From assembly GCF_018977255.1 (NCBI RefSeq), contig NW_024704755.1:2666001-2730000 (forward strand): 64,000 nucleotides of DNA, read 5' to 3'. Positions 27,697 to 35,682 of the stretch are shown here, in pieces. A program made the translations under genes and the position numbers. This stretch comes from Callorhinchus milii (taxonomy: Eukaryota). Within the stretch, counting starts at the first letter, position 1, and each line of letters begins with the position of its first letter. The notes under the pieces are model-generated. The model saw nothing but the letters and a program-made list of their open reading frames with translations. It was not told the origin of the DNA and ran no database searches.

Positions 27697-28248
27697 TTAT
27701 GGGCCAGGCTGGGCCGAGGGTAGTACAGTTGGTTTCTTAGTGGCTTGATCTCTCAGCCTGGTTTCCCTCTGGCTCTTGGCGAGTTCAACCCGAACCGCGA
27801 TCCCACTAATCCTCAGGCCACTCAGAGAAGTCACGGCTTTCCCTGCAGTTACTTCATCCCTGTAGTCGAGAAAGGCTCTGTGCTGGGCTCCCTTCCAGTT
27901 CAGTCGCACTGGCACAGCATCGTGCTCTCTCAGGACATCCTTCAGTTCACTGACTCTCAGGTTGTGAGGTATATTACCAATGTAAACCGTGGTAATGCTG
28001 CTTGAAACACCGAACCCTTTTTCGGCCTCGGATTCCTTACCCGCGCGGCTGTTGCTATTTCTGAACGTTTTGGATCGGCTATTTTTAACCCCGGCCCCAA
28101 CTCCCAGAGAAAGTGTATCGTCATCCAAACACATCTGCCCCTTCGCTGGGATCGTTCCTTCCATCAGTCGGACGTCTTTTCCTGCTTGTTTTTCTTTGAA
28201 TCGAAGGTGTTTTAGGATCGGTATTTTTCCCATCATCTGCGAGTCCAC
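27697..28248 (-). CDS. MTHFSD: MTHFSD last coding exon with C-terminal RRM (spliced protein 413 aa with one exon 3)
   Basis: CCCAAG| VDSQMMGKIPILKHLR... RRM with VYIGNIP (RNP2-like) and HRAFLDY (RNP1-like). Stop TAA at 27697-27699. Confidence 0.93.
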   Translation of the reverse strand: MDSQMMGKIPILKHLRFKEKQAGKDVRLMEGTIPAKGQMCLDDDTLSLGVGAGVKNSRSKTFRNSNSRAGKESEAEKGFGVSSSITTVYIGNIPHNLRVSELKDVLREHDAVPVRLNWKGAQHRAFLDYRDEVTAGKAVTSLSGLRISGIAVRVELAKSQRETRLRDQATKKPTVLPSAQPGP

Positions 28249-28808: not shown

Positions 28809-28934
28809 CTTGGACCATATAACCCCCTTTGGCTTGGGGCGTCTGCAGTTTGTTCTGATCACCCGGGTGGGGGTAAGGATATAATCTACTGTAAGGTCGT
28901 GCTCTTCCATCAACTCTCCTGGGACGTCAAGCAC
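28809..28934 (-). CDS. MTHFSD: MTHFSD coding exon 7
   Basis: CTCAG| [42 protein letters not shown] |GTAAAA, 126 nt. Confidence 0.95.
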
Positions 28935-30569: not shown

Positions 30570-30682
30570 CTGGGAATCGTGTACCGTGGTCACCACAACT
30601 GTCTTCTCATCCACAGCTCCCATCGATACCATCATCGAGTACTCCAGGTCAGAGAAACCCTCGCCTTTGCCAATCCTCCAGC
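30570..30682 (-). CDS. MTHFSD: MTHFSD coding exon 6
   Basis: CCAAG| (G)[37 protein letters not shown] |GTGTGT, 113 nt. Contains the RIGKGEG glycine motif of the 5-formyl-THF cyclo-ligase family. Confidence 0.95.
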
Positions 30683-31303: not shown

Positions 31304-31394
31304 CTTTGTCTGAAACGGCCACAGAACCCACCACAATCAGATCTACATGGACTTTAGCATCAAGTCCTACCGGCACACTGTACTCCTTCACCCC
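31304..31394 (-). CDS. MTHFSD: MTHFSD coding exon 5
   Basis: CCCCAG| [31 protein letters not shown] |GTAACA, 91 nt, ends in phase 1. Confidence 0.95.
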
Positions 31395-33640: not shown

Positions 33641-34108
33641 CTGCAACAATATGAATCACATCAAACAACGACTTTTTTTGCACACAAGCATCCTGGTGAA
33701 CAGTGTATAAACCAGCTCATCCCCCGCGGACACCGTCCAACAAAACATGCAAGTCCACTTCGTAATCCGCAAAAGTCATTTTCACACAGGCCCAAACTAA
33801 TTTGATTGCTGGCAATCAATGTAACTGAGTGCCTCAGGTTATTTGAGCACAGCGACGTCCCACAAACAGCCGTGAAGTGAATGACCGATGTTATAATAAT
33901 AGTATATAATAATCTTTGCATTTGATGCAGTGCCTTATCACGTCTCCGAGACCTCTCAAAGCGCCTTCACAGAATATACTGCAAAGTGAATCGACTGTAT
34001 ATTTTGTGGGCGAAACGCCAGCAGCCAATTGCCCACAGCAGCGCCCCGCAAACAGTCGTGGACTGAGTGACCAAATTATTATGATTATTCTTTATGTGTT
34101 GCCACTAC

Positions 34109-34222
34109 CTGGAGGCTGACTAAACGGATTCCTTCCAGTGGTTTATCGGGATCCACTTTGACCTCCCTCGTTGCGCTGAAGAAGTCGAGGTCCACGATTT
34201 TACTGCAGGCATCACCGGCCCC
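34109..34222 (-). CDS. MTHFSD: MTHFSD exon 3b (mammal-like canonical exon 3)
   Basis: 114 nt, phase 0/0, CCCCCAG| ... |[44 protein letters not shown]. It matches the human [15 protein letters not shown] motif as I recall it. Not in the ORF track; translated by hand. Confidence 0.92.
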
Positions 34223-34256
34223 CTGGGGGAGTGACAACACACGCAAAGACACTTAC

Positions 34257-34370
34257 TTCCAAGGTGAGAAAACGGTTCTGTTCCTGAGGCTCGTCAGGGT
34301 TCACTTTGACCCTCCCCGCAATCCTGAACTCCCACAAGTTTGACCCATTTTCTGCAGCTCGGGCAGCCCC
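34257..34370 (-). CDS. MTHFSD: MTHFSD alternative exon 3a (paralogous duplicate of exon 3)
   Basis: 114 nt, phase 0/0, CACAG| ... |GTAAGT, open frame GAARAAENGSNLWEFRIAGRVKVNPDEPQEQNRFLTLE. Confidence 0.8.
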
Positions 34371-34751: not shown

Positions 34752-34855
34752 CTTAAAATTAGGGATTCTGTGATGAACCGGCCTTGGGAAGTTTGCCAGG
34801 TCGTTTGCTTCCATATAATCCCAAACTTTTTGCCGAATGTCCCATTTGGTGATAC
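34752..34855 (-). CDS. MTHFSD: MTHFSD coding exon 2
   Basis: TTCCAG| ... (G)[34 protein letters not shown] |[19 protein letters not shown] is the MTHFSD signature. Confidence 0.95.
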
Positions 34856-35654: not shown

Positions 35655-35682
35655 CAGGCTTTAACTTGATGGCTGGTTCCAT
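35655..35682 (-). CDS. MTHFSD: MTHFSD coding exon 1 (MEPAIKLKP-G)
   Basis: ATG in AAAATGG context. The N-terminus resembles vertebrate MEP..G. Phase-1 donor G|GTACAA joins in frame to exon 2. Confidence 0.75.

What the first reader, a model, noticed from the sequence alone, without database searches (positions are those of the whole stretch)
34109..34370. Tandemly duplicated MTHFSD exon 3: sterically forced mutually exclusive exons
Seen: two 114-nt, phase-0/0, stop-free exons with canonical AG/GT sites. 3a (34370-34257) encodes GAARAAENGSNLWEFRIAGRVKVNPDEPQEQNRFLTLE; 3b (34222-34109) encodes [38 protein letters not shown]. They align without gaps (GA...L..F....VKV.PD.P....R...L). The spacer is only 34 nt (GTAAGT...CCCCCAG). 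Established: vertebrate introns this short are essentially not spliced, so including both exons should be blocked. Retaining the spacer would read GTA AGT... and shift the frame (34 is not a multiple of 3). Inference: heavy divergence with preserved length and frame implies an old duplication under selection, giving two isoforms that differ inside the 5-formyl-THF cyclo-ligase-like domain. From recall, 3b matches the mammalian reference, while the VKVNPD.PQ motif of 3a resembles plant/archaeal COG0212 paralogues, so 3a may be the ancestral version. An MTHFSD exon pair may already be listed in human mutually-exclusive-exon catalogues; I cannot verify that.
Basis: partly seen in the sequence, partly recalled or inferred. 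Interest (0 to 1): 0.85.

Follow-up and report, generated by a model that had tools for sequence, protein, structure and literature searches.

The report
Known alternative exon pair in MTHFSD
The elephant shark MTHFSD gene carries two tandem versions of one coding exon only 34 bases apart, which likely forces each mRNA to use one or the other; the same pair is already catalogued in humans and annotated in this species, so it is real but known.

Summary
The window's protein matches Callorhinchus milii, whose RefSeq set already has both isoforms (X1 = 3b, X2 = 3a). The human pair is an 'annotated MXE' (Hatje 2017) and event 139 of Martinez Gomez 2021, dated to Vertebrata; its coordinates give a 32-nt spacer. 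So the event is already known. Two refinements hold up here. Exon 3a keeps the ancestral residues (101 of 110 non-vertebrate homologues are nearer 3a), whereas 3b fixed D24, L29, E30, G31 and L34 in the beta1 loop that lines the folate pocket of related cyclo-ligases. The only usable branch adenines for 3b lie in exon 3a's end or its donor, which supports steric exclusion. Against: four cichlid RefSeq models join both exons, and no RNA contig covered the pair here, so exclusion is inferred. The scan's notes held no earlier MTHFSD finding.

The parts
35655..35682 (-). MTHFSD first coding exon (ATG), 28 coding nt
   Evidence: joined frame equals database protein P0027 at the N-terminus
34752..34855 (-). 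Constitutive exon 2 (104 nt), ends in phase 0 (..RIPNFK)
34257..34370 (-). Alternative exon 3a (114 nt, 38 aa), ancestral-like copy; in RefSeq isoform X2, XP_042196305.1
34264..34268 (-). Best branch-point candidate (CTCAC, yTnAy; A at -43) for splicing to exon 3b, inside the coding end of exon 3a; predicted only
34223..34256 (-). 34-nt spacer: donor of 3a (GTAAGT, adenines at -32/-31 from the 3b acceptor), pyrimidine tract and AG of 3b; no adenine between -30 and -11
   Evidence: human spacer 32 nt from the coordinates
34109..34222 (-). Alternative exon 3b (114 nt, 38 aa), derived copy; in RefSeq isoform X1, XP_007887426.2
33527..33640 (-). Constitutive exon 4 (114 nt), starts in phase 0 ([12 protein letters not shown]..)
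   Evidence: covered by a 1289-nt contig of run X1
31304..31394 (-). Exon 5
30570..30682 (-). Exon 6 (R-x-G-K-G-x-G motif, PF01812 match)
28809..28934 (-). Exon 7
27697..28248 (-). Last coding exon with the RRM and stop codon

Best explanation
This is the elephant shark copy of the vertebrate-wide MTHFSD exon 3a/3b pair: two homologous 114-nt exons that likely arose by one tandem duplication before lampreys and jawed vertebrates split, and that are likely kept mutually exclusive because the 34-nt spacer leaves no room to join 3a to 3b. SHOWN here: the two exons, their phase, the open 413-aa frame with either exon, both isoforms in database models of this species and of lamprey, cichlids, frogs, whale and squirrels, and a 32-nt spacer in human. 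INFERRED splicing mechanism: exon 2 is joined either to 3a (then 3a donor to exon 4, removing spacer and 3b) or to 3b; the branch point for the second route probably lies in the last codons of 3a or inside the 3a donor, so U1 on the 3a donor and U2 for 3b cannot act on the same molecule. Nonsense-mediated decay cannot enforce the choice, since double inclusion and double skipping stay in frame, but it would remove spacer-retaining RNA. INFERRED protein effect: the exon encodes helix-helix-strand-loop-helix of the cyclo-ligase-like domain; both isoforms keep the fold, the nucleotide-binding motif and the RRM, and differ in the loop that lines the folate pocket in true cyclo-ligases. 3a keeps the ancestral N-P-D-x-P-Q loop and probably the ancestral, still unidentified COG0212 ligand site; 3b carries a fixed vertebrate D-P-D-K-P-L-E-G loop and probably altered ligand preference.
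For: Anatomy and homology. Single locus in FOXF1-MTHFSD-FOXC2-FOXL1 order (human cluster in PMC2809919). RefSeq X1/X2 of C. milii differ only within this exon. Of 89 fetched database proteins, 71 had both anchors: 40 carry 3b alone, 21 carry 3a alone, 3 a shortened 3a, 2 neither, 5 two copies. Human pair listed as annotated, validated MXE with PSI differing across samples (adjusted P 0.024 tissue atlas; 1.6e-6 and 1.7e-5 embryonic; 0.0065 and 0.011 ENCODE) and dated to Vertebrata; coordinates give 32 nt. 3b copies of 7 species group at 99/95 support. 101 of 110 non-vertebrate segments are nearer 3a, 7 nearer 3b, 2 tied; all 7 species score 3a above 3b on the non-vertebrate profile. Adenine scan upstream of 3b; steric class defined as under 50 nt from donor to branch point (PMC5740500; PMC7969005). 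AlphaFold2 gives the same elements for both isoforms at pLDDT 95-99 in the exon; best fold matches are 5-formyl-THF cyclo-ligases (2jcb Z 15.9, rmsd 3.7, 177 aligned). Profile alignment puts the loop on the beta1 loop of 1ydm, 1sou, 2jcb and Q/L29 on human MTHFS T64; E61 there contacts the folate substrate (PMC10545881).
Against: Four cichlid RefSeq models (P0023, P0081, P0083, P0089) join 3a and 3b, as do GenBank models of Takifugu, Galemys and Bagarius; their spacers could not be seen, so exclusion may be leaky in teleosts or the models may be wrong. AU tests on the 38 columns did not reject a shark-only 3a+3b clade (p 0.111) or a lamprey-only one (p 0.12), and 3a is not a clade in the best tree. 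Lamprey 3a is as close to lamprey 3b (20/38) as to other 3a copies (16-18/38). The branch point is a motif guess. The loop-to-pocket mapping rests on weak profile alignments (human MTHFS E 0.027, starting at residue 64, so E61 itself was not aligned). The proteomics cell of the MTHFSD row in PMC8373072 is blank. The models were built on alignments sharing 69 non-vertebrate rows, so their likeness is partly built in.
Confidence: 0.9

Rival explanations
1. The pair is real and orthologous, but exclusivity is not purely steric: the spacer can be spliced at low rate or is longer in some lineages, and regulators or protein quality control do the rest.
For: Double-inclusion RefSeq models in four cichlids; double inclusion is in frame; human introns of 43, 49 and 56 nt are spliced (PMC4463651); double-skip models in lamprey (P0030, P0032).
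Against: Spacers of 34 nt (here) and 32 nt (human) are below the 37-65 nt range screened in PMC4463651; no adenine between -30 and -11 of the 3b acceptor; no double-inclusion model among the 4 C. milii proteins of the cluster.
Confidence: 0.2
2. Exon 3a is a decaying, rarely used relic in this species and only 3b makes protein.
For: 3a is less conserved than 3b (49% vs 59% mean identity among 5 lineages); shark 3a has the lowest profile score of the seven 3a copies (53.6 bits) and a long branch (0.57); one non-synonymous difference (N32D) in run X2.
Against: Open frame, strong donor (7 of 9 consensus matches), N24, P25, D26, P28, Q29, R33, L37 all kept; RefSeq X2 includes it; 3a-type models in all 7 species compared.
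Confidence: 0.06
3. The duplication is older than vertebrates, or happened more than once (for example separately in lampreys).
For: 7 of 110 non-vertebrate segments have D24 with L29; five such sequences, among them leech and woodlouse, group with 3b at 94/87; lamprey 3a shares K27, E30, G31 with 3b.
Against: No non-vertebrate representative showed two unlike copies in tandem; the invertebrate D/L sequences lack the 3b G31 and L34; 38 columns invite convergence; PMC8373072 dated the event to Vertebrata after looking in tunicates and lancelets by its stated method.
Confidence: 0.1

Closest known systems
Human MTHFSD mutually exclusive exons (Hatje et al. 2017, PMC5740500, cluster 1051, hsapMXE24827982/84; Martinez Gomez et al. 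2021, PMC8373072, event 139, ENST00000381214 / ENST00000360900)
   Same: Same gene, same position, 114 nt, frame 0-0, same order (3a upstream), type-matched similarity (19/38 for 3a, 25/38 for 3b, counted by eye), ultra-short spacer.
   Different: Spacer 34 nt here, 32 nt in human. Neither main text names MTHFSD in the searches run; I saw no statement of mechanism, polarity or function for this pair.
RefSeq isoforms X1 (XP_007887426.2) and X2 (XP_042196305.1) of Callorhinchus milii MTHFSD
   Same: Contain the window's 3b and 3a peptides letter for letter.
   Different: They start 23 residues later than the 413-aa frame mapped here, which equals the older XP_007887426.1.
Steric-interference MXE class (57 of 629 human clusters in PMC5740500; OGDH exons 4a/4b in PMC7969005)
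   Same: Donor of the first exon less than 50 nt from the branch point of the second.
   Different: In OGDH a longer intron has distant branch points 25-41 nt after the donor; here the whole spacer is 34 nt and the likely branch point overlaps the donor or the first exon.
COG0212 paralogues of 5-formyltetrahydrofolate cyclo-ligase (archaea, plants; linked to thiamin metabolism, function unknown, as summarised in PMC4120688) and true cyclo-ligases (MTHFS/YgfA; PDB 2jcb, 3hy3, 1ydm)
   Same: PF01812 domain and fold; archaeal proteins are 39-45% identical and have the 3a-type loop.
   Different: Vertebrate MTHFSD adds a C-terminal RRM and the alternative 3b loop; the loop is about 4 residues shorter than in true cyclo-ligases.

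Membership tests
Tandem-duplicated mutually exclusive exons | Neighbouring internal exons of like length, same phase, canonical splice sites | tested here: met
   114 and 114 nt, phase 0/0, AG/GT
Tandem-duplicated mutually exclusive exons | Sequence homology between the exons | tested here: met
   14/38 aa without gaps; 0 of 100,000 shuffles reach the score
Tandem-duplicated mutually exclusive exons | Each exon used alone between the same flanking exons | tested here: inconclusive
   RefSeq X1 and X2 show it as annotation; the read support behind them was not seen and no junction was obtained
Tandem-duplicated mutually exclusive exons | Exons not included together | tested here: inconclusive
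   No such model for this species; 4 cichlid RefSeq models have both; no raw reads available
Tandem-duplicated mutually exclusive exons | Both encode the same structural element | tested here: met
   Predicted helix-helix-strand-loop-helix in both models
Orthologue of human MTHFSD event 139 | Same gene and synteny | tested here: met
   Forkhead ORFs at 9502, 48618 and 59307 flank the gene (gene names assigned from sequence and the order in PMC2809919); single locus
Orthologue of human MTHFSD event 139 | Each exon closer to its counterpart in other species than to its twin | tested here: met
   Shark 3a vs other 3a 18-20/38, shark 3b vs other 3b 21-25/38, twin 14/38; 3b clade 99/95, though AU tests lack power
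Steric-interference MXE class | Donor to branch point under 50 nt | tested here: met
   The spacer is 34 nt in all; candidate adenines at -43 to -31 and -10
Steric-interference MXE class | Branch point mapped and double inclusion shown to be blocked | not testable with these tools
   Needs lariat reads or a minigene
U12/U2-incompatibility MXE class | A U12-type donor on one of the introns | tested here: not met
   All eight donors are U2-type
Frameshift/NMD-enforced MXE class | Exon length not divisible by three | tested here: not met
   Double inclusion (451 aa) and double skipping (375 aa) are open
Docking-site/selector RNA-structure MXE class | Conserved competing base-pairings | tested here: inconclusive
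   3 of 21 segment pairs beat all of 15 shuffles by 2-4 kcal/mol, no correction, no second genome
MTHFSD / COG0212 paralogue family | PF01812 domain plus C-terminal RRM | tested here: met
   E 2.9e-23 (3a) and 8e-23 (3b) for PF01812; RRM matches human MTHFSD RRM 2e5j at 3.6e-18
True 5-formyl-THF cyclo-ligase (MTHFS/YgfA) | Pterin-binding glutamate (human E61) in the beta1 loop | tested here: inconclusive
   Loop is 4 residues shorter and no conserved Glu aligns in 1ydm/1sou/2jcb alignments; human alignment starts at residue 64
True 5-formyl-THF cyclo-ligase (MTHFS/YgfA) | Cyclo-ligase activity | not testable with these tools
   Needs an enzyme assay; COG0212 function is described as unknown (PMC4120688)

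The most novel reading that the evidence does not exclude
Vertebrates use this exon switch to toggle MTHFSD between an ancient metabolite-binding form (3a, N-P-D-x-P-Q loop shared with archaeal and invertebrate COG0212 proteins) and a neofunctionalised form (3b, D-P-D-K-P-L-E-G loop fixed since lampreys) with a different ligand pocket, and the choice is hard-wired by a branch point for 3b that sits inside exon 3a's last codons or donor. The human reference isoform would then be the derived one, and work on MTHFSD as a stress-granule RNA-binding protein may have missed the isoform that keeps the ancestral chemistry; the pair would be a ready-made handle on the unknown COG0212 reaction.
Probability: 0.35. 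Interest if true: 0.45.

Novelty: already known. Interest (0 to 1): 0.17.

Why it matters
As a discovery it matters little: the event is in two human catalogues and in this species' RefSeq models. Its remaining value is as a test case. A spacer held at 32-34 nt between human and elephant shark is a clean example of steric exclusion, and the two isoforms differ where related enzymes bind their substrate, in a protein family whose reaction is unknown. I found no paper on the function or mechanism of the two MTHFSD isoforms, but the library lacks most subscription papers, and two large supplements of PMC5740500 that may list the mechanism per cluster could not be read.

Tried and rejected
RNA evidence in this species: no RNA holder on record was listed. 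Contigs of three presumed RNA runs were laid (X1, X6, X8): X1 covers exon 4 and part of exon 2, none covers 3a or 3b, and no splice joint was listed among the 15 of 77 joints shown, which were repeats; this is no evidence for or against use. A homologue search with exon 3a plus two upstream codons found nothing (7 candidates); exon 7 worked. Pfam and PDB scans of single short exons were mostly blank. PMC9741552 (main text and one supplement) and PMC7954323 (six supplements) had no MTHFSD entry; PMC7969005 and PMC4463651 main texts had none. A damselfish splicing paper gave only one row, a 104-nt and a 114-nt exon 641 nt apart, from a cut file, so no teleost spacer length. The COG0212 paper (PMC6078417) is not held; its content is taken second hand. 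dN/dS was not computed: no orthologous nucleotide sequences were available. Rejected: assembly artefact, second gene copy, U12/U2 incompatibility and frameshift-NMD as the excluding mechanism. RNA-structure control was only screened crudely. No complex prediction was run, as no binding claim is made.

Full report
OBSERVATION. The minus strand holds two 114-nt exons at 34370-34257 (3a) and 34222-34109 (3b) with the stated peptides, AG/GT ends and a 34-nt spacer. They align without gaps at 14/38 aa and 58/114 nt; 0 of 100,000 shuffles reached the score; second codon positions match most (24) and third least (15), as for old coding copies. One contig of run X2 spans both exons, with no difference in 3b or the spacer and one in 3a, N32D.

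THE GENE. I mapped eight coding exon positions from 35682 to 27697; with either exon the frame is open for 413 aa, and it is also open with both or neither. The locus is single in G000. Forkhead ORFs lie at 9502-10563, 48618-50201 and 59307-60803, matching the human order FOXF1, MTHFSD, FOXC2, FOXL1 (PMC2809919, passages); the three names are my assignment from sequence and order. The best database hit is Callorhinchus milii MTHFSD. Its cluster holds RefSeq X1 (XP_007887426.2), which contains 3b, and X2 (XP_042196305.1), which contains 3a; they differ at 24 positions, all in this exon. Both match PF01812 (8e-23, 2.9e-23) and an RRM.

WHAT IS KNOWN. Hatje et al. 2017 (PMC5740500; supplement rows and main-text passages seen) list both human exons as 'annotated MXE', 114 nt, frame 0-0, cluster 1051, with inclusion differing among samples but low tissue inequality (Gini about 0.12). 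Martinez Gomez et al. 2021 (PMC8373072; supplement rows and passages seen) list event 139, last common ancestor Vertebrata, also in Hatje and in Lam et al.; the proteomics cell is blank. Their coordinates, chr16 86552033-146 and 86552179-292, give a 32-nt human spacer (my subtraction). By eye, shark and human share 19/38 (3a) and 25/38 (3b).

SPREAD AND AGE. Of 89 database proteins fetched lacked the anchors; of the other 71, 40 carry 3b alone, 21 carry 3a alone, 3 a shortened 3a, 2 neither, 4 both (cichlids) and 1 two 3b-like copies (Albula). Both types occur in lamprey, elephant shark, tilapia, two frogs, sperm whale and ground squirrel. These are gene models, not reads. Mean identity among five lineages is 49% for 3a and 59% for 3b. 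In a 32-row tree of the 38 columns the seven 3b copies form a group (99/95); the 3a copies are unresolved among invertebrate sequences; AU tests rejected nothing, including species-specific pairs (p 0.111, 0.12), so the tree supports but does not prove one duplication.

WHICH COPY IS ANCESTRAL. From the 150 best representatives I removed those in the vertebrate clade of a tree of exons 4-7 (support 0.83) plus four short ones by identity, one multi-repeat protein, and rows with under 30 of 38 columns, leaving 104, and added 6 of 8 prokaryote loci, all archaeal (one truncated and one true cyclo-ligase left out). Most of the 104 are unnamed; seven were named as leech, woodlouse, copepod, limpet, sea urchin, scallop and lobster. 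Of these 110, 101 are nearer 3a, 7 nearer 3b, 2 tied. A18 (104/109), N24 (87/110), Q29 (91/109) and F/Y34 (68/110) are the outgroup states; 3a has N24, Q29 and F/Y34 in 7 of 7 species, whereas 3b has D24, K27, L29, E30, G31, L34 in 7 of 7. Against a simple story, lamprey 3a shares K27, E30, G31 with 3b, and 7 of 110 outgroup rows have D24 with L29.

SPLICING MECHANISM (inferred). All donors are U2-type and both exons keep the frame, so U12 incompatibility and frameshift decay are out. Within -18 to -45 of the 3b acceptor the only adenines are -43 (a yTnAy match inside exon 3a), -36/-35 (last codon of 3a) and -32/-31 (inside the 3a donor); the only other is at -10. The yTnAy consensus and the usual window are established knowledge, not from a call. 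A branch point at or upstream of the donor cannot serve a 3a-3b splice. The published steric limit is about 50 nt (PMC5740500; PMC7969005, passages). Human ultra-short introns screened were 37-65 nt, with 43-56 nt ones shown to be spliced (PMC4463651, passages); a 30-nt intron is claimed (PMC4675715, abstract). 'Not spliced' is therefore likely, not absolute. Spacer retention stops 105 nt before the next junction and would be a decay target by the usual rule. The main counter-evidence is the set of double-inclusion models in cichlids and three GenBank genomes, whose spacers I could not see. No junction data were obtained for this species.

PROTEIN EFFECT (inferred). AlphaFold2 models of P0027 (3b) and P0026 (3a, lacking the first 23 residues) give the same elements for the exon: two helices, a strand, a loop and a helix, at pLDDT 95-99. 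Both match 5-formyl-THF cyclo-ligases (Foldseek 1ydm 1.3e-9; VIA-align 2jcb Z 15.9, rmsd 3.7, 177 aligned). The R-x-G-K-G-x-G motif and acidic residues near the C-terminal end of the domain lie in shared exons and are nearly invariant; their role in nucleotide binding is recalled from MTHFS. A profile alignment places V-N-P-D-K-P-Q on the first strand and loop of 1ydm, 1sou and 2jcb, with a 4-residue gap, and Q29 on human MTHFS T64; E61 of that loop contacts the folate (PMC10545881, passages). The swap thus probably changes the substrate side of the pocket. COG0212 function is unknown, with a link to thiamin metabolism (PMC4120688, passages), and MTHFSD is cited as a TDP-43-regulated protein in stress-granule pathways (PMC10835012, passage). 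No functional difference was tested.

VERDICT. Real, ancient, probably sterically exclusive, and already known in human catalogues and in this species' annotation. I found no paper on the mechanism or function of this pair, with the limits that subscription papers and two large supplements of PMC5740500 were not visible. The scan's earlier notes had no MTHFSD finding and did not change my reading. Interest 0.17.

Noticed in passing
P0023, P0081, P0083, P0089 (cichlid RefSeq models): Four cichlid models contain 3a and 3b in tandem; either the teleost spacer is long enough to splice or the models are wrong.
   Followed up: partly
P0006 (Albula glossodonta): Model with two 3b-like exons in tandem, suggesting a further lineage-specific duplication of 3b.
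   Followed up: no
P0029, P0035 (lamprey), P0049 (sperm whale): Models using an internal acceptor in exon 3a that leaves 24-25 aa; lamprey also has models skipping both exons (P0030, P0032).
   Followed up: no
window 34277: One contig of run X2 differs in exon 3a, giving N32D; a variable position across species.
   Followed up: partly
window 9502-10563, 48618-50201, 59307-60803: Intact FOXF1, FOXC2 and FOXL1-like ORFs around MTHFSD: the human 16q24.1 cluster order is conserved.
   Followed up: partly
P0111, P0121, P0126, P0146 (leech), P0187 (woodlouse): Non-vertebrate homologues with a 3b-like D-P-D-K-P-L loop; convergence or an older origin of the 3b state.
   Followed up: partly
P0092: An 1810-aa protein with about seven MTHFSD-like stretches, apparently a tandem multi-domain COG0212 protein; a cluster member comes from a marine microbial eukaryote transcriptome set.
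   Followed up: no
window 33830-34100: A very high-copy interspersed repeat begins just after the 3b donor, while the 3a-3b spacer is free of insertions.
   Followed up: no
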